Assembly: GCA_050288485.1 (NCBI GenBank)
Contig: JBNKDX010000001.1
Span: 1-27,885 of the forward strand
DNA: 27,885 bases
Direction of reading: 5' to 3'
Origin: Rhodomicrobiaceae bacterium
GTDB taxonomy: Bacteria; Pseudomonadota; Alphaproteobacteria; Rhizobiales; Rhodomicrobiaceae
Shown here: positions 403 through 13,347 of the stretch, in pieces
How the letters are laid out: each line of letters begins with the position of its first letter
How positions within the stretch are numbered: position 1 is the first letter of the stretch
Notes under the pieces: model-generated
Told to the model about the DNA's origin: nothing
The model's database searches: none
Seen by the model: only the letters and a program-made list of their open reading frames with translations
Position numbers and translations under genes: made by a program

Positions 403-961
403 TCAATCCCTTCGAGGTTCGGTACAGCGACCGCGGTCAGGAAGTCTGCCCGGCGGAGGATCGAGCTTGTCGACAAGCTGCTGGTAGACGGCGTCGAAGC
501 CGGGATCGTAGTTGTCCGGATGATCGCGGATCATGGCGATGACCTTGCGGCAGCAATCGGCGGCCTCGCGGTTCTCGCCGCGGGCCTCATGCACCATGCC
601 GAGGCGGTCATAGCCATCGTGCTCGTCAGGGAACCGCTCCAGGAGGTCGCGCGCGGTCTGCTCGGCCTCGTCGAGTTTGCCGGCATGGACGAGGTCGACC
701 ACGGCGTTGGAAGCGTCCGTGAGTTCTTCGGCCTCGTCGTAGACGGTGGCGAGCATGTCGGCGAGTTCCTCCACAGCGCTGGGCAGGCGTGGTGGCGAAG
801 CGGGAGGCTGCACGGCAGCGGCGAGCCGCTCGCGTTTCGCGGCTTCATCATTCGTCAGGCAACGACTCTTTGTTTGTCCTACCGCTTCGCTGCTTGAGGA
901 CCTGTTTGTACTTCTTGCCGCTTCCGCAGGGGCAGGGATCATTGCGTCCGGTTTTGGCCAT
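403..961 (-). pseudogene. SEC-C motif + TPR-repeat protein, frameshifted by a ~37 bp insertion
   Basis: ATG at 961 reads MAKTGRNDPCPCGSGKKYKQ (SEC-C motif GRNDPCPCGSGKKYK). Removing 865-901 joins this in frame to RCLTNDEAAKRERL...GKLDEAEQTARDLLERFPDEHDGYDRLGMVHEARGENREAADCCRK (TPR-like helices) of the 403..942 ORF. Confidence 0.8.
865..901 (-). repeat. Hairpin micro-insertion, family A copy 1
   Basis: Minus strand GTCCTCAAGCAGCGAAGCGGTAGGACAAACAAAGAGT. The 27 bp core is identical to 1900-1926. GTCCT/AGGAC stem with a GCGAAGC cap. Interrupts the SEC-C motif; boundaries +/-1-2 nt. Confidence 0.85.
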
Positions 962-989
962 GGCGGTCAATACGCCGTTGCTCGGAAGG

Positions 990-1706
990 ATGCACACTTT
1001 GTACCAAGCTCTATTGTCTGACGCCGGATTTCATGCCCTCCTGCTCGCCTTCGATCGCGATCTTGCCAATGCCTGCCGGCGCAAGGGTTGCGCCTTGCGC
1101 CGCGGAGCTCTGCACTCCGCCCGGTACCGGCGCAAACCACGCGGCCGGCTCTGCAAGCTTGGCGAGGAGCACGACTGGCGTTTCAGCTATTGCTGCGCCC
1201 GCGACGGCTGCCGCACGCGGGCGACGCCGCCGTCGCTGCGCTTTCTCGGCCGCAAAGTCTATCTCGCCGCCATGGTGGCGCTGGCTGCGATCATGCAGCA
1301 TGGGATCACCGGGGCGCGGATAAGACAGCTGCACAAGGCCGCACGCGTCAGCCGCCGGACGGTTGCGCGCTGGCGGCTGTGGCGGCGCAGCACTTTCCCC
1401 GCAACCCCATTCTGGCGGACTGCGTGTGCCGCATTCATGCCGCCGGCCGATGAGGATCGTCTGCCAGCCTCGCTGCTCAAGCGCTTCTCCGATGACGGCA
1501 CATCCTGTCCGGACACCCCTGGTGCTGCACAGCTGCTGCGATGCTTGGAAGCGATGTTTACTGATCGCGACCAGGAGCGACGTTTATCTGGTCGCGACCA
1601 AACAAGTGTCGCTCCAAGCGTCGCTCTGAATCGCAGCCACAAACAGCTGATGGCGCTGTTGCGCTTCATCGCCCCCCTCACCGGAGGCTGCGAGCACGCT
1701 CAGTAG
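990..1706 (+). CDS. Cys/His-rich, HTH-containing transposon-associated protein (DUF6431-like, inferred) with a ~46 aa in-frame foreign insert; probably decayed
   Basis: ATG 990 after GGAAGG. Motifs HSARYRRKPRG, RFSYCCARDGCRTRATPPSLRFLGRKVY and HTH-like VSRRTVARWRLW. Lies directly upstream of the transposase. The insert lies between RFSDDG and HKQLMALLRF. Confidence 0.6.
   Translation: MHTLYQALLSDAGFHALLLAFDRDLANACRRKGCALRRGALHSARYRRKPRGRLCKLGEEHDWRFSYCCARDGCRTRATPPSLRFLGRKVYLAAMVALAAIMQHGITGARIRQLHKAARVSRRTVARWRLWRRSTFPATPFWRTACAAFMPPADEDRLPASLLKRFSDDGTSCPDTPGAAQLLRCLEAMFTDRDQERRLSGRDQTSVAPSVALNRSHKQLMALLRFIAPLTGGCEHAQ
1500..1637. repeat. Nested composite of family B hairpin units (~138 bp, in frame)
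   Basis: Outer inverted repeat GCTGCGAT (1535-1542) / ATCGCAGC (1630-1637). Inner units GCGAT-gtttactg-ATCGC (1551-1568) and GCGAC-gtttatctg-GTCGC-gaccaaacaag (1577-1606). Perfect palindromes TGTCCGGACA (1506-1515) and TGGTCGCGACCA (1589-1600). Confidence 0.7.
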
Positions 1707-1825
1707 CGGTCTTCTCAGATCCGCAGAGGATGCCCGTCGCCGGAAAAATCTGCGTCCTTTATCGTCTGTGCGCCCCGATCCACAGGAGTGCCGATGTGAT
1801 GGAGCAGGAGCGGAGTCCTGGAGTC

Positions 1826-1863
1826 CTTGTTGGCCGCGATCAGACAAGCATCGCGGCGAAGTC
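1826..1863 (-). repeat. Hairpin micro-insertion, family B (38 bp including a 4 bp AGTC duplication)
   Basis: AGTC at 1822-1825 and 1860-1863. Stem GCCGCGAT/ATCGCGGC with a 9 nt loop. Removal restores GV-HERW. Confidence 0.85.
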
Positions 1864-1899
1864 CACGAGCGGTGGGCGCACCTGCGCTTCTCCGTTACC

Positions 1900-1934
1900 G
1901 TCCTCAAGCAGCGAAGCGGTAGGACAGCAAAAAA
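1900..1934 (+). repeat. Hairpin micro-insertion, family A copy 2 (35 bp)
   Basis: GTCCTCAAGCAGCGAAGCGGTAGGACAGCAAAAAA. Removal restores FSVT-AQLLAAPPPKG. Confidence 0.85.
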
Positions 1935-2090
1935 GCACAGCTGTTGGCCGCTCCCCCGCCAAAGGGCGAACTGCGCGCCGCCATCGAGGCGCTCGCCGCT
2001 CAAACCTGGCGCCACCCGGCCACAGGCGATCCTGTCCGCTTCGGCTTCTCCACCATCGAGCGGTTGGTGCTACCGTGCCCTGAAGGAACG

Positions 2091-2126
2091 GTTTTTGTTG
2101 TCCTACCGCTGCGCCACTTGAGGACG
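2091..2126 (-). repeat. Hairpin micro-insertion, family A copy 3 (36 bp, ACG flanking duplication)
   Basis: Minus strand CGTCCTCAAGTGGCGCAGCGGTAGGACAACAAAAAC, 24/27 identical to the copy 1/2 core. Removal restores ALKER-SDPVGVLRR. Confidence 0.85.
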
Positions 2127-2154
2127 CAGTGATCCCGTCGGCGTCCTGCGCCGC

Positions 2155-2190
2155 ATACCGTCGCGATGCTTGTCTGATCGCGACCAGCAA
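2155..2190 (+). repeat. Hairpin micro-insertion, family B (36 bp, GCA flanking duplication)
   Basis: Stem GTCGCGAT/ATCGCGAC, loop GCTTGTCTG (same loop as the 1826-1863 copy on its own strand), tail CAGCAA. Removal restores LRR-KIRNN. Confidence 0.85.
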
Positions 2191-2463
2191 AAAATTCGTA
2201 ACAATGCCGGCCGGCAGATCGCGATGAGCGGCGCCGTCCGGCAGGCTGTGCTGGCGCAATACGCCGCGCACAAAAGCTGGAGTGTCCAGCTCCATCACGA
2301 CAATCTCGCCGCTCTGGCTGAGACGAGGCCCGACCTGCAGCCGGCGCCGTCCTACACCACGCTGCGCCGCTTCTTCAAAGCCAACGGTCTCGACCGCCGC
2401 CGCGTTACATCGCGCCAGACCGAAGGCGCCGCCCGCGCCGAGGACCGGCTCGCTGATCGCGAG

Positions 2464-2897
2464 ATGGGCGACATGTTCGGCGTCGAACTGCGGCCAACCA
2501 ATCGCTGGGGCGGCGCCAAGATGCTCCGTGACCGTTGGCAGCCCCACATCGACGCCGCGCTGTCGCGCCCCGTCCTCATCGTCGACGAGGCGCAGGAAAT
2601 GCCGCCCGCCGTACTCGCCGAACTGCGTCTCCTGTCCTCCGCACGTCTCGACAGCCACATCCTGCTCACCGTCGTCCTCGCCGGCGACGGCCGCCTCGTC
2701 GAACGTCTGCGCTCCGACGAACTGATGCCGCTCGCCAGCCGCATGCGCGTCCGCCTCGCCCCAAGTGAGCGTTTATCGCGAACGGTAAACGTTCGCTTAA
2801 GCGCGCCACGCCGGAGGAACTGCGCGAATACATCGAGCACGGACTGCAGAAAGCCGGCGCCGCCAAGATGATGACGCCCGAGCTGGTCTCTACAGTG
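2464..2897 (+). pseudogene. ExeA/IstB-like AAA+ ATPase, internal fragment
   Basis: Walker B region RPVLIVDEAQEM, followed by LLTVVLAGD and LASRMRVRL. After removing 2762-2796 it continues ALKRATPEELREYIEHGLQKAGAAKMMTPELVSTVSE. Walker A and the C-terminus are missing. Confidence 0.8.
2762..2796 (+). repeat. Hairpin micro-insertion, family C copy 1 (35 bp)
   Basis: CAAGTGAGCGTTTATCGCGAACGGTAAACGTTCGC forms a 12-14 bp stem with G-T wobbles and a CGAA loop. Removal restores the ATPase frame. Confidence 0.75.
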
Positions 2898-2930
2898 AGT
2901 GAGCGCTTGACGCTCACGATAAACGTTCGC
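2898..2930 (+). repeat. Family C copy 2 at the ATPase/IS4 junction
   Basis: AGTGAGCGCTTGACGCTCACGATAAACGTTCGC, 27/33 identical to 2764-2796. Confidence 0.7.
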
Positions 2931-3457
2931 TTTCCCGCGACGCCAATATCGCCCTTGGCAAAGGCAGTGCGATCAAGCCGCTCTCCGCCTTTCTCATCGG
3001 TCAATCCGATAAAACTGAAGCGCTCGTCCGGAAGGTCGAAGGCGCCATGAAGCCGCCATAGGCCGCTGTTCTTCTTTGCCTCTTTCCCTGCCTTCGGAAC
3101 CGTCGTCCCGTCGAGGCGCCGGATGCGCCGTCCTCCTGCCTCGGACGGGACGCCGGCGTTGAGGAGTGTGCCTGCGAGATGTTCCATCCAGGCGCCGCAC
3201 TTGCGCAGGCGCTTAAGCAGGGCAACGTTGGAAAGGTCTGCGAGACCGGCTGATGCGGCCCATGCGCTTGCCGATCTCAGCCCCATGCCGCCCAGGCAAT
3301 AGGCCAGGACCAGACGTAGCAGATCGGTTGCGCAGGCCACTGCCCGGCTTCGAAGAAACGCCCCCTTCACGCGGGCGGACGCCTCGATGGGCGCTGTCCC
3401 GCCAAGCCGGGTAAGGATGGTCTGCCAAAGCTCGTTCAGAAGCGTTTCGTGCGTCAT
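2931..3457 (-). pseudogene. IS4-family transposase, 3-prime truncated (~174 aa remain)
   Basis: DLLRLVLAYCLGGMGLRSASAWA, LSNVALLKRLR, RRLDGTT (first DDE Asp), WRLHGAFDL and LTDEKGGERLDR...GDIGVA. Similarity stops where the second catalytic Asp is expected, and the ORF then reads through unrelated antisense ATPase sequence. Confidence 0.8.
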
Positions 3458-3521
3458 GCCATGCTAGAATCTGACTCGATTCCAGCTGGTGTTAGCGCGT
3501 GTGGGCGAGATGCCTGGGGGG

Positions 3522-3563
3522 CTAAGCAGACTTTCGTTGGCCGCCCAACGAATGCCAGCTTAG
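3522..3563. repeat. Nested inverted repeat upstream of the IS4 gene
   Basis: TTCGTTGG (3533-3540) / CCAACGAA (3545-3552) inside CTAAGC (3522-3527) / GCTTAG (3558-3563). Could be another micro-insertion or an IS-end feature. Confidence 0.45.
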
Positions 3564-3752
3564 ACTCTTTATGTTTTCGCAGAGTTTTTTCGCAAAACCG
3601 GGAAGACCACTTTTGCGAACTCTGCTTAGCGGCGGAAATCCGGCATTTTTCACACGGATTGCAGTGCGGCAGCCCAGGCCCGAATGGATACGCCGTCCGG
3701 TTGAGAACGCTCATCAACGCTATTTTATGGTTTATAGCTGATAGTCCCGCGC

Positions 3753-5162
3753 ATGTTGTGGGAACAGAACTTTCAGCGCGCGGTCGAGTCTCTGGCTGGT
3801 ACGGCGGAGAATAGCGGCGCCTATGTCAGCCCCCGTTCTACCGGCGATCCGGACCAGGTCACTGAAGCCCGCTTTTTGGCGCTCGGCGGAAATTCTCCGG
3901 CGTATTCGGGCGACGCGTTCACCGAAGATCCCGCCGAGCCCTGCGCCGCCATCCTGCTGACGAGGCGCATCGACCCTGCCGAACTGGCCAATGCCCTCGC
4001 CGAGGCGCAGGACCCGGCCTTGCCGATCGCCGATTTCGGCGGCAATCCCGAGCTTCGAAGCGATTTTTCGCGCGCGAATCTGAACGTCGAGAGCTTCGGC
4101 GAGATGAAGCAGACATTCGCGCCGATCTGGCGGCGGCTCGTGGAGCTGCCGTTCCATTCCCTGCGCGAGGACCGGGCCGAACTGACGACGCTCCGTCTCA
4201 GCTATTCGCGCGCCGCGGCCATCGAAGGCGCGCTCACGGCGGAGACGCGCAATGTCGTGGAATACCCGCTCCTCGGGCTGGGCGCCTCCCCGCAGCGTCA
4301 ACTGGAGCTGCTCGCGGACGCGGGCCTTCTGCATCGCCGCTTCTTCACGCGCACGCAGACCTGCGGCAGATGCGGCTCGGCGCGGCTCAACGTGTTCGAG
4401 GCCTGCCCGTCCTGCAGCAGCGCGGACATCGCGGAGCAGGAAATCGTCCACCATTACCGCTGCGGCGCGCAGGAAGCGGAATCGCACTTCAGACAGGGCG
4501 AACTGCTGGTCTGCCCCAAATGCCGCCGCATTCTGCGCCATTTCGGCAAGGATTACGACAAGCCCGGCGTGGTGGTCACCTGCGCGTCCTGCGGCGCCTC
4601 GAATTCACAGCCGGCCGTGCGCTTCGCCTGCCTCGACTGCAAAGCAGTGACGTCGGCGGACGACTCCAAGACGATCGACTGGTTTCACTACGATCTGACT
4701 GACGACGGCATCCGCGCACTGCGCGAAGGCCGTCTGCCGCGCTTCGAGGTCGGAGCGGCGTTCGAAAAGCGCACGCGCGCCTACTCGCCGCAGGACTTCC
4801 GGCTGCTCGTCATGCAGGAGATGCGGGTGGCGGAGCGCTACAAGCGCCCCTTCGCGGTGGCGCGTCTGTCGTTCCCGAACCTCGACACCCTCCGGCACGA
4901 GATGGGGCCTATGGCCGCGAACACTGCTCTTTTGAGCGCCGTCGACGCCGTCACCGGCGTGTTGCGCGGCTCCGATTTCGTAGGCACGCGCGGCGCCGGC
5001 TCCGCGGTGATCGGTTTCCCGGAGACCACGGCCAGAGACGTCCAGGAGAATATCATCAACCGCATCCGCGAAACCATGCGCGAGACGACCGAGGTTCCGA
5101 TCAAGATTGCGGCCGAAGTTTCGGAAGGCGACGCGATCGCGTCGCTGCTGATCGAGAGTTGA
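3753..5162 (+). CDS. TackOD1-like Cys-rich metal-binding protein with C-terminal degenerate GGDEF domain (predicted c-di-GMP receptor)
   Basis: 11 clustered Cys: CGRC, CPSC, HHYRC, CPKC, CASC, CLDC. The C-terminus AERYKRPFAVARL...LRGSDFVGTRGAGSAVIGFPETT follows the GGDEF-fold pattern, with GAGSA in place of GGDEF. Confidence 0.75.
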   Translation: MLWEQNFQRAVESLAGTAENSGAYVSPRSTGDPDQVTEARFLALGGNSPAYSGDAFTEDPAEPCAAILLTRRIDPAELANALAEAQDPALPIADFGGNPELRSDFSRANLNVESFGEMKQTFAPIWRRLVELPFHSLREDRAELTTLRLSYSRAAAIEGALTAETRNVVEYPLLGLGASPQRQLELLADAGLLHRRFFTRTQTCGRCGSARLNVFEACPSCSSADIAEQEIVHHYRCGAQEAESHFRQGELLVCPKCRRILRHFGKDYDKPGVVVTCASCGASNSQPAVRFACLDCKAVTSADDSKTIDWFHYDLTDDGIRALREGRLPRFEVGAAFEKRTRAYSPQDFRLLVMQEMRVAERYKRPFAVARLSFPNLDTLRHEMGPMAANTALLSAVDAVTGVLRGSDFVGTRGAGSAVIGFPETTARDVQENIINRIRETMRETTEVPIKIAAEVSEGDAIASLLIES

Positions 5163-5233
5163 CGCCAGACAGCCGCGGGCGGCGGCGCCTGTGAAGGCGC
5201 TTCTACGCCCCCGCGTCTCCCGAGGAGCCGACC

Positions 5234-6622
5234 ATGCTGAATCGCCCGATGTTGCGGATGCACGCCTCAGACAGGGCGTCCGGCAAGGCCGACGCCTATA
5301 CGAGGCTGCGGCGGCTCATCGACAACAGGAAGGCGTCCGTCGGCATATTCGGGATGGGGCCGGTCGGGTTGCATCTGGCCTGCTCCGCGGCGCAGGGCGC
5401 AGGACTGCAGGTCATCGGGTTCGATATCGACGAGACGCGGATCAAGGCTCTGGAGAAGGGCAAGTCCTATGTGAGCGACCTGCCTTCCACCACCATCGCC
5501 AAGCTCGTCAAGAACGGCCACCTCGTGCCGACCGCGGATTTCTCGCTCGCGCACGATGCGGACGTGCTCATCATCTGCGTGCAGACGCCGCTCAACCAGT
5601 ATCGCGAGCCCGACCTTTCCCATGTCGAAAAGGCGGCGCAGACGCTGTTGCAGCACGCGCGGCCCGCACAACTCGTCATCCTAGAGTCGACGTCCTATCC
5701 GGGCACGACGCGGGACGTGCTCGGCAATCTGCTCAGCCAGCGCGGCCTGACGCTCGGCGAGGACTTGTTCCTGGCGTTTTCTCCCGACCGTCACGATCCC
5801 GCCAATCTCCGCTATGATATCGCCACGACGCCGAAGGTCGTCGGCGGCGAAGGGCGCGCGGCGCTCGATCTCGCCTGCCGCTTCTACGGTTCGTTCATCA
5901 AGGAGGTGACGCCGGTTTCCTCGGCCGACACCGCCGAAGCGGTGAAGCTGACGGAGAACATATTCCGGGCCGTCAACATCAGCCTCGTGAACGAGTTGAA
6001 GATCCTCTTCACGGAAATGGGCATCGACATCTGGGAGGTCATCGAGGCCGCCTCGACCAAGCCGTACGGCTTCATGCCGTTCTTTCCCAGTCCTGGCATG
6101 GGGGGGCACTGCATCCCCATCGACCCCTCCTATCTGGCCTGGCGGGCGCGCTCTTACGGTCTGACGGCGCGTTTCGTCGAACTGGCCGGCGAAATCGACC
6201 TGATGATGCCCAAATACGTGGTCTGCCGGCTCAACACCGCCCTCAATGTGCGGAGGAAACGCAGCCTCTTCGGATCGCGCGTCCTCGTCATCGGCGTGGC
6301 CTACAAAAAGAACGTCAACGATCTCCGCGAGACGCCCGCGGTCGCAGTCATCCGCGAGTTGCTCAAGCGCGGGGCCAAGCCGGCGTACTACGACCCGCTC
6401 GTTCACGTCCTTCCGGCGGAGGACGGGCCGGACCCCACGCCGGAGCTTCGGTCCACGGACTGGTCGCCCGCCAAGATCGCGAGATACGATGCCGTGATCA
6501 TCCATACCGACCACGACGAGATCGATTACGAAGCGCTCGCCGAGAATGCCCAGCTCATCATCGACACGCGCAACGCCTGCGGCAGCCGCGGGATCGTCAG
6601 TTCCAAAATCGTGAAGGCGTGA
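5234..6622 (+). CDS. Nucleotide-sugar 6-dehydrogenase, WbpA/WecC/TviB (UDP-HexNAc) type
   Basis: Rossmann GIFGMGPVG, ICVQTP, LESTSYPGTT, FSPDR, KLTENIFRAVNI, catalytic GGHCIPIDP, AYKKNVNDLRE. RBS GAGGAG at 5222. Confidence 0.9.
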   Translation: MLNRPMLRMHASDRASGKADAYTRLRRLIDNRKASVGIFGMGPVGLHLACSAAQGAGLQVIGFDIDETRIKALEKGKSYVSDLPSTTIAKLVKNGHLVPTADFSLAHDADVLIICVQTPLNQYREPDLSHVEKAAQTLLQHARPAQLVILESTSYPGTTRDVLGNLLSQRGLTLGEDLFLAFSPDRHDPANLRYDIATTPKVVGGEGRAALDLACRFYGSFIKEVTPVSSADTAEAVKLTENIFRAVNISLVNELKILFTEMGIDIWEVIEAASTKPYGFMPFFPSPGMGGHCIPIDPSYLAWRARSYGLTARFVELAGEIDLMMPKYVVCRLNTALNVRRKRSLFGSRVLVIGVAYKKNVNDLRETPAVAVIRELLKRGAKPAYYDPLVHVLPAEDGPDPTPELRSTDWSPAKIARYDAVIIHTDHDEIDYEALAENAQLIIDTRNACGSRGIVSSKIVKA

Positions 6623-6647
6623 AGGGGCGTGCGAGGGAGCCAGCGGC

Positions 6648-7646
6648 ATGACGAGAGCGGCGAAGGTACTGATAACGGGCGGCGGCGGCCTGATCGGCGG
6701 ACGCCTCGCCAAGCAGCTCCTGGATGCCGGCTGCATGGTGACGGTGCTGGATGTAGCGCCGCTGGACGCGGGCAGCCTGCCTTATCTGGGCATTGCGCGC
6801 CACCCCGGCCTGGCCTATCTGAAGGGTTCGGTGACGGACACCGAAGCGTGGCGCAGCCTGCCGGACAACTTCGACCGCATCGTGCATGCGGCGGCCATTC
6901 TCGGCATCGAGCGCGTGCCCCGCGAGCAGATCGAGACCATGGATGTGACCGTCGTCGGCACGAGAATGGCGCTCGATTTCGCGCGGACCCTGCCCGGTCT
7001 GGCGCGCTTTCTCTATCTGAGCACATCCGAAATCTACGGTGTTTCGGCGCAGGGGCTGGACGAAGCCGCGTCCGCCGTCATCCAGACCCAGGGCCGCAGA
7101 TGGTGCTATGCCTCGGCCAAGCTGACCGCCGAATTCTACGTGCAGGCTTTCGCTGAACGTTACGGCTTCCCCTATACCATCGTCCGTCCCTTCAACGTCT
7201 ACGGACCGTCGCCCACTTGCAGCGGCGCGCTCACGACGATGGTCAAACGCGCAGCCGCCGGCGACGCCATCCGCGTGACGGGGACGGGGCATCAGACACG
7301 CTCCTGGTGCCATGTGCAGGATTTCGCCAAAGGATTGCAGCGCTGCCTGTTCGACCACGCGGGCTGGAACCAGACGTTCAATCTCGGCAGCGACACGACC
7401 GAAGTCTCTATCCTCCAGCTCGCGCAGACGATCCGCGACATGGCGCAGTCCTCGTCCGCGATCGTGATCGGCGACGGCGGCGAGCCGGACGTGCTGAACC
7501 GGCGGCCGGACCTGACGAAAGCGCGGAAACTGCTGGGGTTTGAAGCGCCGACCGGTCTGCCCGAGGGGATCGAGGATATTTTGGCCTGGGTGAAAAAGAC
7601 AGTGCCGAAAAATCTCGCGACGGCCGAAAAAGTGCCCGGGACTTGA
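6648..7646 (+). CDS. Extended SDR, UDP-uronic acid decarboxylase (UXS/ArnA-like) or epimerase
   Basis: ITGGGGLIG, HAAA, YLSTSEIYG, RWCYASAK (YxxxK), RPFNVYGP, GTGHQTRSWCHVQD, FNLG. The TSE and RWxY motifs resemble the decarboxylase subgroup. Confidence 0.8.
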   Translation: MTRAAKVLITGGGGLIGGRLAKQLLDAGCMVTVLDVAPLDAGSLPYLGIARHPGLAYLKGSVTDTEAWRSLPDNFDRIVHAAAILGIERVPREQIETMDVTVVGTRMALDFARTLPGLARFLYLSTSEIYGVSAQGLDEAASAVIQTQGRRWCYASAKLTAEFYVQAFAERYGFPYTIVRPFNVYGPSPTCSGALTTMVKRAAAGDAIRVTGTGHQTRSWCHVQDFAKGLQRCLFDHAGWNQTFNLGSDTTEVSILQLAQTIRDMAQSSSAIVIGDGGEPDVLNRRPDLTKARKLLGFEAPTGLPEGIEDILAWVKKTVPKNLATAEKVPGT

Positions 7647-7669
7647 TCGCAGAAGGGAGTATCGCTGCA

Positions 7670-8926
7670 ATGGATGCGTTGGACATACTGCGATCATGGG
7701 GCGTAAATAGCTGGCTATATTTTTCTTGGTTCGCGTGCATATTCTTAACGCCGTACTATTATATCGGACCAATGCTTGTACCGATAGGGATGCTATGGAG
7801 CCGGAGCAAGCCCGCAATCACGCCAAATCTCAGCTTCAGCGTGGTTGTGGCGGGCAACAACGAAGAACACCAGCTTCGCAGGTTCGTGGAATCGATTGCC
7901 GAGCAGACGATCTGTGCGGAAGAAGGAAGAATCGAATTGGTCGTGGTCGATGACGGTTCCACAGATCGAACAGCCGAAATCGCTTGGGAACTCCAGCGAG
8001 AAGGCAAAATCGACAAGGTGCTGAAACTGGATCAGCGGGGCGGAAAAGCGGCCGCCCTCAATCTCGCCCATACAGTGTGCACGGGCGATATCATCATCTC
8101 GGCCGACGTTGACACCACCTTCGACAGGGACGCCTTCGCCAGAATACTGGCCTATTTCGCCGACCCGCGCGTCGGCGCTGTCAGTTGTATTGTCAGTCCG
8201 CTCAACGATGACACCAATCTGATCACCCGCTATCAGGTCATCGAATACGCGTTCTTCGCTTATTTGCGCCGCTGCATTTCGAGCGCCCTAAATATGATGC
8301 CGATGCTCGTGGGCGCTTTTTACGCCTGCCGCCGCACGGCGCTCCAGCAAGTGGGCGCATTGGAGCCGGGCGCCGTCGAAGACGTCGATCTCGCCCTGAA
8401 GCTCCGCCAGGCCGGATGGCGTGTCCTCCTGGCCCCTGAGGCTCGTGCGCTGACAATTGTGCCGGATACGATTGCGGGCCTCATCGTGCAGCGCCTGCGC
8501 TGGGATCAGGGTGTGATTAGTCTCTGGACTCGCAAGTCCGTTTCCACAATCAATCCCCGCAACGCCAACTTCTCTATCCTGAATGCACTCGTATTGCTCG
8601 AACATCTTAGCCATGAGGTTATACTTGGAATTATAATTGGGCAGCTAATATTTGTATTGTATATAACAAGCGCCGAGTTCTGGCAGATTTATGTTGGAAC
8701 TATAGTTATAATAGAGTCGTTCCTTATATTTATAGTTTTTATTGCAGCGGCTGTTGAGGGGCAGGTGCCGTTTAGATACGTCGTTTATGTGCCGTATTAC
8801 ATCGTTCAAACGTACATACTGCGCATAATCCGATCGGTTTCAGTGATTTGGGAGCTGATTTTCTTCAGCTCTTTAAAGAACCCAGTCCTTCCAGCTCGCG
8901 TGAGAAGCCAGGTGGAGGTTTCGTGA
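7670..8926 (+). CDS. Processive GT2 polysaccharide synthase (PgaC/IcaA/HasA-like architecture)
   Basis: DDGSTD, GGKAAALN, DVD, EDVD and QRLRW (D,D,D,QxxRW). One N-terminal and several C-terminal hydrophobic segments. ATG 7670 follows GGAG; an alternative TTG at 7643 overlaps the SDR stop. Confidence 0.85.
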   Translation: MDALDILRSWGVNSWLYFSWFACIFLTPYYYIGPMLVPIGMLWSRSKPAITPNLSFSVVVAGNNEEHQLRRFVESIAEQTICAEEGRIELVVVDDGSTDRTAEIAWELQREGKIDKVLKLDQRGGKAAALNLAHTVCTGDIIISADVDTTFDRDAFARILAYFADPRVGAVSCIVSPLNDDTNLITRYQVIEYAFFAYLRRCISSALNMMPMLVGAFYACRRTALQQVGALEPGAVEDVDLALKLRQAGWRVLLAPEARALTIVPDTIAGLIVQRLRWDQGVISLWTRKSVSTINPRNANFSILNALVLLEHLSHEVILGIIIGQLIFVLYITSAEFWQIYVGTIVIIESFLIFIVFIAAAVEGQVPFRYVVYVPYYIVQTYILRIIRSVSVIWELIFFSSLKNPVLPARVRSQVEVS

Positions 8927-9024
8927 TGCATCCTTTCTACCGGCAGCACGAGATATTGATCTTCAATGACACCGATGCCGACGCCAATATCCGGCGCCCC
9001 ATCCACAGCCAAGTGGAGACATGA
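8926..9024 (+). CDS. Putative 32 aa micro-ORF MHPFYRQHEILIFNDTDADANIRRPIHSQVET
   Basis: GGAGGT at 8914-8919. Its ATG overlaps the GT2 stop (TGATG) and its own TGA overlaps the ATG of the next gene (ATGA). Below the size cutoff of the ORF track. Confidence 0.45.
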   Translation: MHPFYRQHEILIFNDTDADANIRRPIHSQVET

Positions 9025-10067
9025 TGATGCGATTCCTGAAACGGCATGGCGCCGCGCGAATTTTGCCCGTCGAAGACCGCAAGCGCCGACTGGGTCTGAT
9101 CCGTTGGCTGTATCTTGGCAGCATTATCGTGCTGATCATCTGGCTGTTCGATCTGTTCTTCGGCGGCTTGTTTTACCTAAGGAGCGACGGTCTGGTTGTC
9201 GGCCAGCCGGGGGCCATCGCTGCTGAATACCCCATCACCGTGCGCGAACTCGCGGTGCGCGAGGGTGACGTCGTCAAGGCCGGGCAGGTGGCGGCGATCG
9301 GGTCGTCCCAGAACGTGGCCGAGACCATCGCGCGCCTGACCTCCGAACTCGCGGTGCGGCAGGGCCGTCTCAGTGAGTTGCGCGTCCGCAGCCATGTGGT
9401 CAATGCTCTGATGCCGCTCGCCGAGAATCGTTTGAAAGTGGCGACACATGCCCGCGAGGAAATGCACCGGCTTCTGGACAGTGGCCTTACAGCGCTCAAT
9501 CAACGCACGGCGGCGGTCGAACTTGAATACCGCGCGAAGACTGATCTCGCGACGTTGTCAGCCGAAAAGAAAGTCCTCGACAAGGAGATCTCCTCGCTGA
9601 CGGTTGCCTTAGGGGAAGCCACAAAGGCTCTCACCGATCTTCGCCGCCTTTACGATGGGGGCCGCCTGCGCGTGCCTTTGGACGGCGTTATCGGCCGCCG
9701 CCTTGCGAGCACGGGTTCGGTGATGCGTGCGGGCGAGCCACTGTTCGAGGTGTATGGCAACAATCTCTATATCCTTGCCTATCTGCCCTCGGGCACGCTC
9801 TACACGGTGAAACCCGGCGATCCGGTGCGCATTTCGACTGGCCTCGACACTTACCGCGGGACGGTCAAGAGCATCGAACCATACGCAGCCGCGCTGCCAC
9901 ATGAGTTTCAGCGGGCTTTTAGGCCGGTCGAGCGTCAGCAGCTCATGCGTGTCGAATTCGACCGCGGCACGACGCCGCCGCCCGTGTTCACCAAGGTGTG
10001 GCTGACGTCCACCCGCTTGGCGGCACGATGGTTCGACGCCTTTCTCAGAAAAGTCTGGCCGACCTGA
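9021..10067 (+). CDS. HlyD-family membrane fusion / periplasmic adaptor protein
   Basis: Basic N-terminus, one TM segment (WLYLGSIIVLIIWLFDLFFGGL), lipoyl-like half motifs ELAVREGDVVKAGQ and VPLDGVIG...VMRAGEPLFEV flanking a coiled coil. RBS GGAG at 9015. Confidence 0.85.
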   Translation: MMMRFLKRHGAARILPVEDRKRRLGLIRWLYLGSIIVLIIWLFDLFFGGLFYLRSDGLVVGQPGAIAAEYPITVRELAVREGDVVKAGQVAAIGSSQNVAETIARLTSELAVRQGRLSELRVRSHVVNALMPLAENRLKVATHAREEMHRLLDSGLTALNQRTAAVELEYRAKTDLATLSAEKKVLDKEISSLTVALGEATKALTDLRRLYDGGRLRVPLDGVIGRRLASTGSVMRAGEPLFEVYGNNLYILAYLPSGTLYTVKPGDPVRISTGLDTYRGTVKSIEPYAAALPHEFQRAFRPVERQQLMRVEFDRGTTPPPVFTKVWLTSTRLAARWFDAFLRKVWPT

Positions 10068-10083
10068 TCTCAGAAAAGGATAG

Positions 10084-10112
10084 GCTGCGGCGCATTGCGA
10101 TACCGCCGCAGC
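10084..10112 (+). terminator. GC-rich hairpin after the EPS operon (possible terminator)
   Basis: Perfect 9 bp stem GCTGCGGCG/CGCCGCAGC, 11 nt loop, no long U tract. Confidence 0.4.
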
Positions 10113-10190
10113 TTCACAAACCCCGTCGTCCCGGTGTATGGAGGAGAGAGGGTTAATGCGGCATATCTCTTCAGATTCGGCGGGTGATGA

Positions 10191-11165
10191 ATGTCTATCG
10201 CGCTCAACAGCTCGACATTGGTGACGGTTTTCGGCGGTTCCGGCTTCGTCGGGCGCTACGTGGTTCAGGCGCTGGCGCGCACCGGCTGCCGGGTGCGCGT
10301 CGCCGTAAGGCGGCCGGACCTTGCCGGACATCTGCAGCCGCTCGGCAATGTCGGACAGATTTGCGCTGTCCAGGCCAATCTGCGCTATGAAGATTCGATC
10401 CGCCGCGCCGTCGAAGGGGCGGACGCCGTCATCAATCTCGTCGGCATCCTCCAGCAGGGCGGAAAACAGACCTTCCGAACGCTCCAGGCCGTCGGCGCGG
10501 GACTGACCGCGCGCGCGGCGAAGGAGGCGGGGGCGCGCGCTTTCGTGCACATCTCGGCGCTCGGCACCAACCGCCTAAGCAGTTCCGCTTATGCCCGGAC
10601 CAAGGCCGAGGGCGAAGATCTGGTCGCGCGCGCCTTTCCCGGCGCGGTGATCCTCAGGCCGTCGATCATGTTCGGGCCGGAGGACGATTTCTTCAACCGT
10701 TTCGCCGCGATGGCGCTTATATCCCCTGTCATACCGCTCCTGGGCGGCGGGCGCACGCGCTTTCAGCCGGTCTATGTGGGCGACACGGCGCAGGCGGTGA
10801 TCGCCGGGCTGGACGGACGCGCCAAGCCGGGCGTCGTTTACGAACTGGGCGGACCGCGCGTCTACACGTTCCGGGAGCTGCTCGACCTCGTCGCCCAATA
10901 CACCGGCCGCCGCCGTTCCTATTTCCCGGTCCCGTTCTGGCTGGCGAAACTTCAGGGCCTGTTCCTGCAGGTGCTGCCGAACGCGCCGCTCACGCTCGAT
11001 CAGGTCCGGCTCCTGCAGACCGACAACGTCGTCAGCGCCGAGGCCATCGACGAAGGCCGCACGCTGGAGGCGTTGGGCGTCGAACTGCACGCCCTGGAGA
11101 CCATCGTGCCAAGCTACCTCGTCCGCTTCCGCCCGAAGGGCGAGTTCTCGCTGCATCAGGCCTGA
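10191..11165 (+). CDS. Complex I NDUFA9-like atypical SDR
   Basis: VTVFGGSGFVGRYVV, RVAVRRPDLAGHLQPLGNVGQI, VINLVGIL, YARTKAEGE, RPSIMFGPEDDFFNRFA, FQPVYVGD. Confidence 0.9.
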   Translation: MSIALNSSTLVTVFGGSGFVGRYVVQALARTGCRVRVAVRRPDLAGHLQPLGNVGQICAVQANLRYEDSIRRAVEGADAVINLVGILQQGGKQTFRTLQAVGAGLTARAAKEAGARAFVHISALGTNRLSSSAYARTKAEGEDLVARAFPGAVILRPSIMFGPEDDFFNRFAAMALISPVIPLLGGGRTRFQPVYVGDTAQAVIAGLDGRAKPGVVYELGGPRVYTFRELLDLVAQYTGRRRSYFPVPFWLAKLQGLFLQVLPNAPLTLDQVRLLQTDNVVSAEAIDEGRTLEALGVELHALETIVPSYLVRFRPKGEFSLHQA

Positions 11166-11470
11166 AGCCGGGCGGCCCCGCGGCACGATAGACACACGAA
11201 CGGGCTGCGATGGTGCGGACTACGTATTCCGCACTCGACACCCCCTGGTGGGAATCGCGTAATACCCTGTGTAGTGGCGTTGGCAAGAGACGCACAACCT
11301 CGCTGTTCCATCACCGGTGCGGGCTTTTCTGTGTCGGCCTGGGGCGCGAGTTAACGCTTTGCTGATATTGCGTCGCGTACAAACGTTTGTGGCCCTTCGC
11401 CGGGACCAGCGTTTGCGGCGCCATTTCGGCGGTTCTGGTCGCGAGTTGCGCCTAATTCCCGGTTCCGGTC

Positions 11471-12169
11471 ATGCTCAGGCTTATTCATTACCCGCTCTGT
11501 CCGTTCTCCCGCTCCATAAGGCTGGCGCTGGGCGAATGCGGCGTGGTCGTGGAGCTTGACGAAGAACGGCCATGGAGCTGGCGGCGCGAGTTCCTCAAGC
11601 TCAACCCCGCCGGAACGCTGCCCGTGCTCTTGGAACGCGGCGAATTCATTCTCGCCGGGGCTTACGCGATCTCCGAATATCTCGGCGAAGCCCACACCAA
11701 GACCAATGGCGAAGGCATACCGCGCAATCTCCTGTTCCCCGGCGCGGGCGCGGAGCGCGCCGAGGTGCGGCGGCTCGCGGACTGGTTCCACCGCAAGCTC
11801 GATGAAGAAGCCAGCCGCTATCTCCTGGAGGAGAAGCTCTACCAGCGTTTCGCCGACCTCGGGCGCAGCACGCCGGATACCGATCTCATCCGTGCGGGGC
11901 GCGCCAATCTACGCTATCATCTCAGCTACATCGGCCATCTGCTGGACACGCGGAAATGGCTGGCGGGCGATGCCTTGAGTTTCGCCGATCTGGCTGCGGC
12001 AGCACATCTGTCGGTGCTGGACTATCTCGGCGAAGTGCCGTGGGACGAGTTCCCGGAGGCCAAGGCGTGGTATGCGCTCCTGAAATCGCGCCCGTCCTTC
12101 CAGCCGCTTCTGGTGGACCGCCTGCCCGGCGTGGCGCCGCCGCGCCTTTACGCGGAGCTTGATTTTTGA
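11471..12169 (+). CDS. fzlA: Glutathione S-transferase family protein, probable FzlA orthologue
   Basis: HYPLCPFSRSIRLAL, LNPAGTLPVL, RWLADWF-like helix, WLAGDALSFADLAAAAHLSVLDY, KSRPSFQPLL. Position next to queG matches the conserved alphaproteobacterial arrangement; orthology is inferred. Confidence 0.75.
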   Translation: MLRLIHYPLCPFSRSIRLALGECGVVVELDEERPWSWRREFLKLNPAGTLPVLLERGEFILAGAYAISEYLGEAHTKTNGEGIPRNLLFPGAGAERAEVRRLADWFHRKLDEEASRYLLEEKLYQRFADLGRSTPDTDLIRAGRANLRYHLSYIGHLLDTRKWLAGDALSFADLAAAAHLSVLDYLGEVPWDEFPEAKAWYALLKSRPSFQPLLVDRLPGVAPPRLYAELDF

Positions 12170-13326
12170 CGCAGGCCATCGACAGTGCGGCGGGAGCGGA
12201 CCGGCGGTACTCAGCCGTGGCCGTCAAGGCCGCACTCTTCGAGCGGGCGGAGCGCGAGGGCTTCGATGCGGCGGGTGTGACCACGCCGGACGGTATCGGG
12301 CAGGCAGGCGAGCGTCTGGCGGCGTTTCTGACCGAGGGCCTGCACGGCGGCATGGACTGGCTTGAGGCGCATCCAGAGCGGCGGCGGTGCCCTTCGGCGC
12401 TCTGGCCGGATGTGCGCTCCATCGTCATGCTGGGCATGAACTACGCGCCGGAAACCGATCCGCTGGCCATACTCGCCGAGCGCGGACGCGGCGCGGTTTC
12501 CGTCTATGCCCGGGGCCGCGACTATCACGACATCGTCAAAGGCAAGCTAAAGGGGCTCGCGGGCTGGCTCGCGTACACGACAGGCGAGGACGTGAAAGTC
12601 TTCGTCGATACCGCGCCGGTGATGGAAAAGCCGCTGGCGCAGGCGGCGGGGCTGGGCTGGCAGGGCAAACATACCAATCTCGTGTCGCGCCGCCTCGGCT
12701 CATGGCTGTTCCTCGGCGCCATCTTCACCACCGCGCACCTGCCGCCGGACGAGCCGGAGCGCGATCACTGCGGCGCCTGCCGCCGCTGTCTCGACGCCTG
12801 CCCCACGAACGCCTTTCCGGCCCCCTACCGGCTCGACGCGCGGCGCTGCATCTCCTATCTCACCATTGAGCACAAGGGCCACATCCCGTGCGAATTCCGG
12901 CGCGCCATCGGCAACCGCATCTATGGTTGTGACGACTGTCTGGCCGTGTGCCCGTGGAACAAGTTCGCCGCTGCCGCCAGAGAGGCGAAATTCGCCGCGC
13001 GGCGCGCAACGGCGGGGGCACCGCTCGCGGAGCTGCTGACGATGGACGACGCCGCGTTCCGGACCGCATTCGCGGGCACGGCCATCAAGCGGACGGGCCA
13101 CGCCCGCTTCATGCGCAACGTGCTGATCGCGGCGGGGAACGCGGATGACGCGCGTCTCCTGCGCCCTGTCATGGCGCATCTCGCCGCTCCCGAGCCGCTG
13201 ATCCGCGCCATGGCCGTGTGGGCGACACGCCGTTTTTTCCCCTGCGGCGATCCAGAGATTGCGCGCATCCGCCAAAATATGCTGCAAAGTGAGACGGATG
13301 AGGCCGTTCGCGCAGAACTGAACTGA
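12166..13326 (+). CDS. queG: Epoxyqueuosine reductase
   Basis: YARGRDYH, FVDTAPVMEKPLA, GWQGKHTNL, CGACRRCLDACPT, CISYLTIE, GCDDCLAVCPWN. TTG start overlaps the upstream stop. Confidence 0.95.
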   Translation: MTQAIDSAAGADRRYSAVAVKAALFERAEREGFDAAGVTTPDGIGQAGERLAAFLTEGLHGGMDWLEAHPERRRCPSALWPDVRSIVMLGMNYAPETDPLAILAERGRGAVSVYARGRDYHDIVKGKLKGLAGWLAYTTGEDVKVFVDTAPVMEKPLAQAAGLGWQGKHTNLVSRRLGSWLFLGAIFTTAHLPPDEPERDHCGACRRCLDACPTNAFPAPYRLDARRCISYLTIEHKGHIPCEFRRAIGNRIYGCDDCLAVCPWNKFAAAAREAKFAARRATAGAPLAELLTMDDAAFRTAFAGTAIKRTGHARFMRNVLIAAGNADDARLLRPVMAHLAAPEPLIRAMAVWATRRFFPCGDPEIARIRQNMLQSETDEAVRAELN

Positions 13327-13347
13327 TTGGCTCGAAGAGGTTTCGTG

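What the first reader, a model, noticed from the sequence alone, without database searches (positions are those of the whole stretch)
3753..10067. Candidate undescribed c-di-GMP-controlled, synthase-dependent exopolysaccharide system
Seen in sequence: five genes plus a micro-ORF, co-oriented, with overlaps or gaps of 71 bp or less (Cys-rich degenerate GGDEF, sugar dehydrogenase, decarboxylase-like SDR, processive GT2, membrane fusion protein). The block sits between transposon debris and core genes. Established: synthase-dependent polymers use a QxxRW GT2 that polymerises and translocates, and they are often c-di-GMP gated (cellulose, Pel, alginate, PNAG). The rhizobial bgsBA mixed-linkage glucan locus pairs a GT2 with an HlyD-like protein. 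Inference: this set matches none of those loci, because it adds its own precursor pathway and a distinct receptor. It may make a uronic acid and/or pentose(NAc) polymer.
Basis: partly seen in the sequence, partly recalled or inferred. Interest (0 to 1): 0.85.

Follow-up and report, generated by a model that had tools for sequence, protein, structure and literature searches.

The report
Mxd-type exopolysaccharide operon with precursor genes
This is a relative of the Shewanella mxdABC biofilm-polysaccharide machine, a c-di-GMP-sensing protein, a membrane sugar-polymer synthase and a periplasmic adaptor, that has picked up two sugar-nucleotide enzymes and had its synthase gene swapped, so it is an unusual variant of a known but poorly studied system, not a new kind.

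Summary
Five co-oriented, tightly spaced genes lie at 3753-10067: TackOD1 plus dead GGDEF, an NDP-sugar dehydrogenase, a UXS/ArnA-like SDR, a QxxRW GT2 and an HlyD-like adaptor.

The claim that the system is undescribed does not hold. All three core proteins are homologous to Shewanella oneidensis MR-1 MxdA, MxdB and MxdC:
- MxdA has the same TackOD1 plus GGDEF-like architecture and matches at BLASTP E 6e-28.
- MxdB matches at E 6e-39 over its full length.
- The MxdC family matches by hhalign at 99.6% probability.

MxdA is a published c-di-GMP-binding effector. The trio is widespread: at least 586 loci in species-representative genomes and 2097 clusters at 50% identity. This scan has already reported it on other DNA (31 earlier findings in at least 23 genomes).

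Three things are particular to this window:
- The dehydrogenase and SDR genes sit inside the operon. I found this only in this genus and one metagenome lineage, out of about 110 loci inspected.
- The synthase gene is a low-GC replacement allele, 44% identical to the one in an otherwise 76-95% identical relative. A 4-epimerase-like gene has been lost alongside it.
- The "micro-ORF" is the leftover 3' end of the displaced synthase gene, not a subunit.

The polymer's chemistry is unknown, here and for Mxd. Verdict: a new variant of a known kind, of moderate interest.

The parts
3713..3752 (+). Short leader. A 22-nt AT-rich block (3713-3734) is conserved with the relative, and synteny with the relative starts here.
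   Evidence: DNA alignment with L015. blastn collinearity begins at 3714. No sigma-70-like promoter was found upstream.
3753..5162 (+). mxdA-like gene. It encodes an N-terminal alpha/beta domain, a TackOD1 triple zinc-ribbon domain (residues 139-314) and a catalytically dead GGDEF-fold domain (about 333-469). RGSD (405-408) sits at the I-site position and GAGSA replaces GGDEF. It is the predicted c-di-GMP receptor.
   Evidence: Pfam E 1.5e-47. BLASTP to MR-1 MxdA E 6e-28, with RGSD aligned to RVTD. AF2 model pLDDT 89; Foldseek matches GGDEF domains with TM about 0.6-0.69 on the target. RxxD is kept in 220 of 233 homologues while the A-site is degenerate; 11 Cys and a His are more than 90% conserved.
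5234..6622 (+). Nucleotide-sugar 6-dehydrogenase. It is closest to the UDP-HexNAc dehydrogenase group (WecC, Cap5O, TviB) and further from UDP-glucose dehydrogenases.
   Evidence: TIGR03026 at 378 bits; no equivalog cut-off reached. Best PDB matches are 4r16, Cap5O and CalS8. It is 89% identical to the relative's gene.
6648..7646 (+). Extended SDR of the UXS/ArnA-like type, with STSEIYG and YASAK motifs. It is a probable C4-oxidising enzyme, possibly a decarboxylase, acting on the uronic-acid nucleotide. Its last roughly 12 codons lie in the replaced segment.
   Evidence: Pfam Epimerase E 1e-43. Best PDB match 8vr2 (182 bits, function not found), then human UXS1 (102 bits). A 38%-identical M. 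branderi homologue sits between a sugar dehydrogenase and aminotransferases.
7610..8962 (+). Replaced segment, with approximate limits. The relative has 2.36 kb here (a 4-epimerase-like SDR plus its own GT2). The window has 1.37 kb with a different GT2 allele.
   Evidence: blastn collinearity stops at 7594 and resumes at 8959. Junction alignments. GC is 0.527 against 0.62-0.67 in the neighbouring genes.
7670..8926 (+). mxdB-like processive GT2 synthase, 418 aa from the ATG. An upstream TTG at 7643 would give 427 aa and a 4-bp overlap with the SDR gene.
   Evidence: BLASTP to MR-1 MxdB: 27% over 398 aa, E 6e-39. PgaC_IcaA model scores 133 bits, below its 422 cut-off. Family-invariant D95, D146, E237, D238, Q274, R275 and W278 are all present. 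It is 66% identical to the metagenomic P0126 and 44% to the relative's GT2. It forms a clade with P0126 and P0127.
8926..9024 (+). 32-codon ORF. It is the relic of the 3' end of the displaced GT2 gene, a recombination scar.
   Evidence: Its last roughly 24 residues align with the C-terminus of the relative's GT2, at both protein and DNA level.
9021..10067 (+). mxdC-like periplasmic adaptor with an N-terminal membrane helix, lipoyl/barrel-sandwich domains and a coiled coil.
   Evidence: Pfam HlyD_3 E 7e-12. hhalign of its family against the MxdC family: probability 99.6%, E 1.5e-24, 314 columns. It is 76% identical to the relative's gene.
10191..11165 (+). NmrA/HpnA-like SDR, a conserved neighbour that is probably not part of the system.
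   Evidence: It is 95% identical to the relative's gene, like the core genes that follow, and a 123-bp gap separates it from the adaptor gene.

Best explanation
The block is an Mxd-type, synthase-dependent exopolysaccharide operon.

Shown by homology:
- Its first, fourth and fifth genes are homologues of Shewanella mxdA, mxdB and mxdC.

Inferred mechanism:
- c-di-GMP binds the conserved RxxD site of the dead GGDEF domain of the MxdA-like protein.
- That protein touches the cytoplasmic catalytic domain of the GT2 through its zinc-ribbon TackOD1 domain and switches on polymerisation coupled to translocation.
- The HlyD-like adaptor links the synthase to a TolC-type outer-membrane channel. That channel is encoded elsewhere in this genome, but inside the operon in many relatives.

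Lineage-specific additions:
- A nucleotide-sugar 6-dehydrogenase and a UXS/ArnA-like SDR are inserted between receptor and synthase. They probably turn a common UDP-hexose or UDP-HexNAc into a uronic-acid or decarboxylated donor for this synthase.

History shown by comparison:
- An ancestral arrangement like the relative's was dehydrogenase, SDR, 4-epimerase-like SDR, GT2. It was overwritten by a divergent GT2 allele from a related lineage that lacks the epimerase.
- The swap left a 32-codon stump of the old synthase gene. Donor pathway and synthase allele therefore changed together.
For: Homology to Mxd:
[quoted passage not shown] It carries TackOD1 (E 4.7e-71) and a weak GGDEF match.
- It aligns to the window protein over 305 residues at E 6e-28.
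- MxdB matches the GT2 at E 6e-39. The MxdC family matches the adaptor family at 99.6% probability by hhalign.
- The MR-1 gene order is A-B-C-D.

Linkage of the trio:
- Of 80 gamma- and betaproteobacterial loci, 79 have the GT2 directly after the TackOD1 gene, and 45 have a TolC-like gene between GT2 and adaptor.
- Of 20 loci from the window's own order, 18 show Tack-GT2-HlyD.

Receptor signature:
- RxxD is kept in 107 of 116 and 113 of 117 homologues, while the GGDEF position is random.
- The C-terminal domain has a GGDEF fold.
- One homologue sits next to a PAS-GGDEF-EAL gene.

Published work:
- MxdA binds c-di-GMP, and mxd is needed for three-dimensional biofilm (PMC7666153, PMC3691769).
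- A GT2-HlyD-TolC tripartite model exists for BgsA/BgsB (PMC13438883).

Predicted contact between receptor and synthase:
- The verdict was weak support: score 0.51 against a best control of 0.00. That mark was reached by 58 of 80 solved complexes and 2 of 110 mismatched pairs. At 0.60 or under, only 7 of those 80 solved complexes reached it, as did both mismatches that passed.
- The interface uses the family's most conserved TackOD1 motif, residues 261-266.

Other support:
- A TolC-like gene is present in the genome on contig C169.
- The synthase swap is documented.
Against: - Nothing was measured in this organism, which is an uncultured MAG about 70% complete.
- The Mxd polymer itself has never been chemically defined in the papers I read, so homology gives the machinery and not the product.
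- Nine of 116 close homologues lack the Arg of RxxD.
- An earlier paper described MxdA's effect on c-di-GMP levels as indirect (Rakshe 2011, as cited in PMC3691769).
- Neither sugar enzyme reaches an equivalog cut-off, so the substrates are unknown.
- Synteny with the relative ends 40 bp before the first start codon, next to transposon remains. The native promoter may therefore be lost.
- The right-hand junction of the swap is not bridged by an independent contig. Two contigs abut with only a 10-nt overlap.
- The complex prediction is only weak support.
Confidence: 0.72

Rival explanations
1. The machinery is the same, but the TackOD1/dead-GGDEF protein is not primarily a c-di-GMP switch. It would be a scaffold or adaptor that passes protein-borne signals, such as CheY-like receivers or partner cyclases, to the synthase, or simply a structural subunit.
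For: MxdA interacts with CheY3 and with the cyclase PdgA (PMC7666153). Other family members carry receiver domains or sit beside response regulators (plasmid hits annotated 'response regulator'; earlier scan notes). Some homologues lack the RxxD arginine. The predicted contact with the synthase uses the zinc-ribbon domain and not the GGDEF-like domain.
Against: RxxD is kept in 94% of 233 homologues even though the rest of the nucleotide site has decayed. MxdA is reported to bind c-di-GMP (PMC7666153). The window protein has no recognisable receiver domain by Pfam.
Confidence: 0.15
2. The GT2 does not make a secreted high-molecular-weight polymer. It would make short oligosaccharides, as NodC does, or a lipid-linked glycan, which the adaptor and TolC route then exports.
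For: The GT2 also matches NodC and mycofactocin-type GT2 models. Its best solved relative is a small archaeal membrane mannosyltransferase, 6yv7. No product is known for any family member.
Against: The GT2 is similar over its full length, including the C-terminal membrane helices, to MxdB and to the PgaC/IcaA model. QxxRW is invariant. mxd mutants lose biofilm matrix architecture (PMC3691769). The adaptor-plus-TolC arrangement parallels the mixed-linkage glucan exporter (PMC13438883).
Confidence: 0.1
3. The locus in this window is a non-functional mosaic, either an assembly chimera of two strains or a silenced remnant whose promoter was removed by the neighbouring transposon.
For: The source is a MAG contig at low depth, about 7x. 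Independent contigs break at 8929-8938, with a small depth step. Synteny is lost 40 bp upstream of the operon, beside transposon fragments. No promoter-like site was found.
Against: All five reading frames are intact and keep the family-invariant residues. An independent contig spans 6600-8938 with no differences, and identical pieces occur in three other studies. A chimera joined at homologous positions would not leave both the new C-terminus and a stump of the old one in tandem. A DH-SDR-TackOD1 contig end and a GT2(66%)-adaptor contig start come from one other sample, which suggests the same gene set without the epimerase exists elsewhere.
Confidence: 0.1

Closest known systems
Shewanella oneidensis MR-1 mxdABCD (SO_4180-SO_4177)
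   Same: The three core proteins are homologous and in the same order. MxdA is TackOD1 plus a degenerate GGDEF with RxxD, MxdB is a QxxRW GT2 of about 440 aa, and MxdC is an adaptor of about 350 aa. MxdA is a published c-di-GMP effector, and mxd is required for biofilm matrix (PMC7666153, PMC3691769).
   Different: Identity is only 26-27%. There is no MxdD homologue. Two sugar-nucleotide enzyme genes are inserted between the A-like and B-like genes. The host is a different class of bacteria. The product is unknown in both.
Sinorhizobium meliloti bgsBA mixed-linkage beta-glucan system with TolC
   Same: A processive GT2 and an HlyD-like membrane fusion protein, activated by c-di-GMP. TolC is required, and a tripartite envelope-spanning complex has been proposed (PMC13438883).
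   Different: BgsA senses c-di-GMP through its own C-terminal domain. Here the GT2 ends after its last membrane helix and a separate protein carries the putative site. Gene order is reversed. The best match of the window's GT2 in any S. meliloti plasmid record is NodC (E 1e-11, 54% coverage), so BgsA is at most a distant relative. There are no precursor genes.
[quoted passage not shown]
   Same: Sugar-nucleotide modifying genes (uxs1, uxe) are co-transcribed with the aps polysaccharide genes, and c-di-GMP induces production (PMC7902896, PMC12560781). From my own memory, not checked here: ApsS is a GT2 and ApsH1/H2 are HlyD-like. The relative's version (dehydrogenase, UXS-like SDR, 4-epimerase-like SDR, GT2, adaptor) looks especially alike.
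   Different: c-di-GMP acts there on transcription, through the AraC-type regulator CuxR and the silencer MucR. Here a TackOD1/GGDEF-like protein is encoded in the operon. No sequence comparison was possible because I could not locate the genes with the tools. No S. meliloti plasmid place matched the GT2 better than NodC did.
PNAG synthase PgaCD/IcaAD
   Same: It is the best-scoring curated GT2 model and a processive membrane synthase. PgaCD is c-di-GMP activated (established knowledge).
   Different: The score of 133 bits is far below the 422-bit cut-off. No PgaA, PgaB or PgaD-like genes appear among the ORFs scanned in the block and its flanks. Receptor and export route differ.
PelD of the Pseudomonas Pel system
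   Same: A degenerate GGDEF domain keeps only the RxxD I-site and acts as the c-di-GMP receptor of a polysaccharide machine (established knowledge).
   Different: PelD is membrane-anchored with a GAF domain and no zinc ribbons. The Pel polymerase is not a GT2 of this type. No homology beyond the GGDEF fold was seen.

Membership tests
Mxd-type exopolysaccharide system (MxdA/MxdB/MxdC) | First gene encodes TackOD1 plus a degenerate GGDEF domain that keeps RxxD (MxdA architecture) | tested here: met
   Pfam finds TackOD1 in both proteins. BLASTP E 6e-28 over 305 aa, with RGSD aligned to MxdA RVTD. GGDEF fold confirmed.
Mxd-type exopolysaccharide system (MxdA/MxdB/MxdC) | MxdB-like membrane GT2 with QxxRW in the same operon | tested here: met
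   27% identity over 398 aa, E 6e-39. QRLRW is present. Here two inserted genes separate it from the first gene.
Mxd-type exopolysaccharide system (MxdA/MxdB/MxdC) | MxdC-like periplasmic adaptor directly downstream of the GT2 | tested here: met
   Pairwise BLASTP is weak (E 4e-4), but profile-profile comparison gives 99.6% probability, E 1.5e-24, end to end.
Mxd-type exopolysaccharide system (MxdA/MxdB/MxdC) | MxdD, a small 118-aa protein after MxdC | tested here: not met
   tblastn of MR-1 MxdD finds nothing in the window (best E 0.52), nor in any of the other loci. MxdD appears specific to Shewanella and not a feature of the wider family.
Mxd-type exopolysaccharide system (MxdA/MxdB/MxdC) | c-di-GMP binding by the MxdA-like protein, and a biofilm-matrix phenotype | not testable with these tools
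   Shown only for Shewanella in the literature (PMC7666153, PMC3691769).
PNAG synthase (PgaC/IcaA equivalog TIGR03937) | Score above the curated equivalog cut-off | tested here: not met
   133.4 bits against a cut-off of 422.3.
BgsBA mixed-linkage glucan synthase | GT2 with a C-terminal c-di-GMP-binding domain | tested here: not met
   The 418-aa GT2 ends about 30 residues after its last predicted membrane helix, with no extra domain by Pfam. The best S. meliloti plasmid match is NodC.
UDP-xylose synthase / ArnA-type decarboxylases (for the SDR) | T-S-E and YxxxK catalytic motifs, and an equivalog-level score | tested here: inconclusive
   STSEIYG and YASAK are present. Human UXS1 is the second-best solved relative. 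No NCBIfam cut-off is reached: PRK11908 scores 82 bits against a 294-bit cut-off.
UDP-HexNAc 6-dehydrogenases (WecC/TviB/WbpA type, for the dehydrogenase) | Equivalog-level score to a characterised member | tested here: inconclusive
   The subfamily model TIGR03026 is met (378 bits). The equivalog models score well below their cut-offs: WecC 196 against 459, TviB 186 against 592. The HexNAc-type enzymes do score higher than the UDP-glucose dehydrogenases.

The most novel reading that the evidence does not exclude
In this sub-clade the Mxd-type synthase has been retuned to a non-standard donor, for example UDP-GlcNAcA or UDP-XylNAc, made by the two enzymes encoded inside the operon. Synthase allele and donor pathway would then be exchanged together between lineages, much as serotype cassettes are. 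If so, the locus would make a polymer of a kind not yet described for any synthase-dependent system. It would also offer a natural pair (this window against its relative with the extra epimerase) for reading donor specificity from GT2 sequence.
Probability: 0.2. Interest if true: 0.6.

Novelty: new variant of a known kind. Interest (0 to 1): 0.4.

Why it matters
Mxd-type operons are very common: at least 586 loci in species-representative genomes, and carriers that include named Pseudomonas, Vibrio, Aeromonas, Nitrosomonas, Phyllobacterium and Methylocystis records. Yet their polymer has not been chemically defined in any paper I found. The only paper in the library that mentions TackOD1 calls the domain's function obscure.

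A variant that carries its own precursor enzymes gives a concrete hypothesis about the kind of sugar such synthases can use. The swap of synthase allele together with loss of an epimerase is a natural experiment on how donor pathway and synthase co-vary. The frequent in-operon TolC gene supports a synthase-adaptor-TolC export route as a general alternative to the BcsC, PgaA or AlgE type porins.

The core finding is not new, either in the literature or within this scan.

Tried and rejected
1. The micro-ORF as a small accessory subunit. Rejected: it is the stump of the displaced GT2 gene.
2. Membership in the PgaC/IcaA family. Rejected on score.
3. Closeness to BgsA or ApsS. No S. meliloti plasmid place beat NodC. 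I could not locate the aps genes for a direct comparison, and two key papers were not held.
4. The search for related loci with a mixed alignment returned only relatives of the Aeromonas query, mostly Pseudomonas, and no Shewanella. MxdA was reached through a protein search and cluster names instead.
5. The function of the SDR's best solved relative, 8vr2. The literature search gave nothing relevant, and a UDP-XylNAc literature search was also uninformative.
6. The organism's name.
7. Assembly chimera. The left junction is verified by an independent contig. The right junction is not bridged, so a chimera is unlikely but not excluded.
I removed the row and sent nothing else of that kind.
9. The promoter and terminator scan found nothing useful.
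10. Rakshe 2011 was not held.

Full report
**What is there**

The window is the whole of contig 1 of a 2.4-Mb MAG that is about 70% complete. Five co-oriented genes lie between 3753 and 10067.
- 3753-5162 encodes 469 aa with a TackOD1 domain (Pfam E 1.5e-47) and a C-terminal region that matches diguanylate cyclases only weakly.
- 5234-6622 encodes a nucleotide-sugar 6-dehydrogenase (TIGR03026, 378 bits).
- 6648-7646 encodes an extended SDR.
- 7670-8926 encodes a family-2 glycosyltransferase. An upstream TTG start at 7643 is also possible. The protein has the D, DxD, ED and QRLRW motifs and membrane segments at both ends.
- 9021-10067 encodes an HlyD-type adaptor.

The gaps are 71, 25 and 23 bp. 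A 32-codon ORF at 8926-9024 overlaps both neighbours. Core genes follow downstream: GST, queG, ppx, rpsB, tsf, dxr and rseP. Upstream there are only weak traces of mobile DNA.

**The first protein**

The sequence reads RGSD, then five residues, then GAGSA where a cyclase would have RxxD, five residues and GGDEF. An AlphaFold2 model built from 92 homologues is confident (pLDDT 89, pTM 0.80). Its C-terminal domain superposes on solved GGDEF domains (Foldseek E about 1e-6, TM 0.6-0.69 on the target).

Across 233 homologues, RxxD is kept in 220 while the GGDEF position is unrecognisable. Eleven cysteines and a histidine of the zinc-ribbon domain are more than 90% conserved. That matches the original description of TackOD1, whose function was then called obscure (PMC5847659).

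**The conserved core is a three-gene module**

- Distant homologues of the first protein (about 48% identity) on long contigs are followed directly by a 420-aa GT2 and a roughly 363-aa adaptor, and nothing else.
- In 80 loci from species-representative genomes, mostly Pseudomonas, Stutzerimonas, Marinobacter, Vreelandella and Nitrosomonas, 79 have the GT2 immediately after the TackOD1 gene. The one exception stops at a contig end.
- 45 of those 80 also have a TolC-like gene between GT2 and adaptor.
- In a sample of 251 genomes from the window's own order, 20 carry the gene. Of 20 loci fetched, 18 show TackOD1-GT2-adaptor.
- One peptide pattern alone found at least 586 loci. The family has 2097 clusters at 50% identity with E up to 1e-3.

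**The core is Mxd**

Earlier notes of this scan named the Shewanella mxd operon as the closest known system, and I tested that claim.
- A search started from a Plesiomonas homologue reached Shewanella proteins.
- This protein carries TackOD1 (E 4.7e-71) and a sub-threshold GGDEF match.
- It aligns with the window protein over 305 residues (26% identity, E 6e-28), and its RVTD lies opposite RGSD.
- In the MR-1 chromosome it is followed by a 442-aa GT2, a 351-aa protein and a 118-aa protein, which is the order mxdA-B-C-D.
- The window's GT2 matches MxdB over its full length (27% identity, E 6e-39).
- The adaptor matches MxdC weakly pairwise (E 4e-4). Family against family, the match is clear: hhalign probability 99.6%, E 1.5e-24, 314 columns.
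- MxdD has no counterpart here or in the other loci.

The literature says that mxd is needed for three-dimensional biofilm and aggregation (PMC3691769). It also says that MxdA is a c-di-GMP effector that interacts with CheY3 and a diguanylate cyclase (PMC7666153, citing Gambari et al. 2019). The papers I could read do not link MxdA to the TackOD1 domain or define the polymer.

**How it probably works**

The trio is homologous to Mxd; that much is shown. The rest is inferred from the conserved I-site and from published MxdA binding. c-di-GMP would occupy the RxxD site and the protein would activate the synthase.

A complex prediction of synthase with receptor gave weak support. The score was 0.51 against a best control of 0.00. 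That mark was reached by 58 of 80 solved complexes and 2 of 110 mismatched pairs. At 0.60 or under, only 7 of those 80 solved complexes reached it, as did both mismatches that passed. The predicted contact joins the most conserved TackOD1 loop (residues 261-266, the LRHFGK stretch) to the GT2 catalytic domain near residues 150-154.

Export through the adaptor to a TolC channel is inferred from three things:
- the TolC gene inside 45 related operons;
- a TolC gene upstream of a 64%-identical homologue;
- the published requirement of TolC for the BgsA/BgsB glucan machine (PMC13438883).

This genome has a TolC-like ORF on another contig. A PAS-GGDEF-EAL gene directly upstream of a 56%-identical homologue adds circumstantial support for c-di-GMP control.

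**What is unusual here: the precursor genes**

The dehydrogenase and SDR genes inside the operon were found only in this window and in the same-genus genome G002, which is L015. They probably also occur in one metagenome. There, a contig ends dehydrogenase-SDR-TackOD1 (71% identity to the window protein), and another contig begins with a GT2 (66% identity) followed by an adaptor. None of the other roughly 105 loci has them.

- The dehydrogenase scores best against UDP-ManNAc and UDP-GlcNAc type dehydrogenases and solved relatives (4r16, Cap5O). It reaches no equivalog cut-off.
- The SDR has the STSE and YxxxK signature of UDP-glucuronate decarboxylases.
- Its best solved relative is an uncharacterised entry, 8vr2, followed by human UXS1.
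- A 38%-identical mycobacterial homologue lies between a sugar dehydrogenase and aminotransferases, which suggests a 4-keto intermediate.

A uronic-acid or pentose-type donor is thus plausible but unproven.

**The synthase gene was replaced**

DNA of the window and of L015 is collinear at 82-84% identity on both sides. Collinearity is lost between about 7600 and 8960.
- In that stretch the relative has 2.36 kb: a 335-aa SDR and its own GT2.
- That SDR closely resembles uronate and HexNAc 4-epimerases (5u4q 398 bits, B. cereus UDP-GlcA 4-epimerase 146 bits, TviC model 120 bits).
- The window has 1.37 kb holding a GT2 that is only 44% identical to the relative's. The flanking proteins are 76-95% identical.
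- The window's GT2 has 52.7% GC, against 62-67% around it.
- In a tree it groups with the two metagenomic proteins P0126 and P0127. Together with the relative's GT2 they form a small, long-branched sub-clade of the alphaproteobacterial synthases (long-branch caveat applies).

The 32-codon ORF after the new GT2 aligns with the last roughly 24 residues of the relative's GT2. It is therefore the stump of the gene that was overwritten, not a new subunit.

Independent contigs of the probable source run cover 6600-8938 without a difference. A second contig covers 8929-9999 and overlaps the first by only 10 nt. Identical pieces occur in three other studies, one of them a sludge metagenome. The left junction is solid. 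The right one is likely real but not independently bridged.

**Comparison with what is known**

- The system works like Mxd and passes the membership tests for it, apart from the Shewanella-specific MxdD.
- It resembles bgsBA in using a GT2, an HlyD-like protein and probably TolC. However, it places the c-di-GMP site on a separate protein, and its GT2 is not close to any S. meliloti plasmid GT2.
- It resembles the rhizobial arabinose-polysaccharide operon in co-transcribing precursor genes with the polysaccharide genes (PMC7902896, PMC12560781). There, c-di-GMP acts on transcription.
- It is not a PNAG synthase by the curated threshold.

**Verdict**

The system is a new variant of a known, little-studied kind. 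This scan has already reported the same trio on other DNA many times. The points worth keeping are the in-operon precursor genes, the coupled swap of synthase allele and epimerase, the explanation of the micro-ORF, and the possible loss of the native promoter.

Noticed in passing
window 1-3712: Synteny with the 86% relative ends about 40 bp upstream of the operon's start codon. The relative has rpoBC and housekeeping genes upstream. The window instead has decayed mobile DNA: a fragment at 2456-2759 is 68-72% identical to transposon-type AAA ATPase genes of Cupriavidus and Paraburkholderia plasmids. The operon may have lost its native promoter.
   Followed up: partly
window 3713-3734: A 22-nt AT-rich block (TCAACGCTATTTTATGGTTTAT) just upstream of the first gene is identical in the window and the relative, although the sequence further upstream is unrelated. 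It could be a regulatory or ribosome-loading element.
   Followed up: no
L021 (Aeromonas caviae plasmid pKAM329_3, NZ_AP024139.1) 5524-11346: A complete mxdA-like, GT2, TolC-like (694 aa) and HlyD cassette sits on a 29-kb mobilizable plasmid. It is 96% identical at the first protein to a Stutzerimonas stutzeri chromosomal locus (L025), so the cassette moves between genera.
   Followed up: partly
L042, L044-L063, L075 (Pseudomonas loci), just after the adaptor gene: In 18 Pseudomonas loci a gene 33-35% identical to the relative's 4-epimerase-like SDR follows the adaptor gene. Sugar-nucleotide enzymes may therefore accompany Mxd-type operons in other lineages too.
   Followed up: no
L114 886-3989 and the contig of P0009: A PAS-GGDEF-EAL gene lies 45 bp upstream of a 56%-identical homologue. 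A TolC-family gene lies directly upstream of a 64%-identical homologue.
   Followed up: partly
L123 (G269:C1) 9031-14010; L118 (G008:C36): One genome has two TackOD1 genes 4 kb apart flanking one GT2-adaptor pair. Another has TackOD1 next to the adaptor with no GT2 between them, and its GT2 match lies on another contig.
   Followed up: no
window 8929-8938: Independent contigs of the probable source run break here, and depth steps from 6.7 to 7.9. A second strain with a different arrangement to the left of the adaptor gene may share the sample.
   Followed up: partly
G001:C167:4270-5226: The third species of the genus carries only a distant (32% identity) TackOD1 gene at a contig end, so the operon type differs within the genus.
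   Followed up: no
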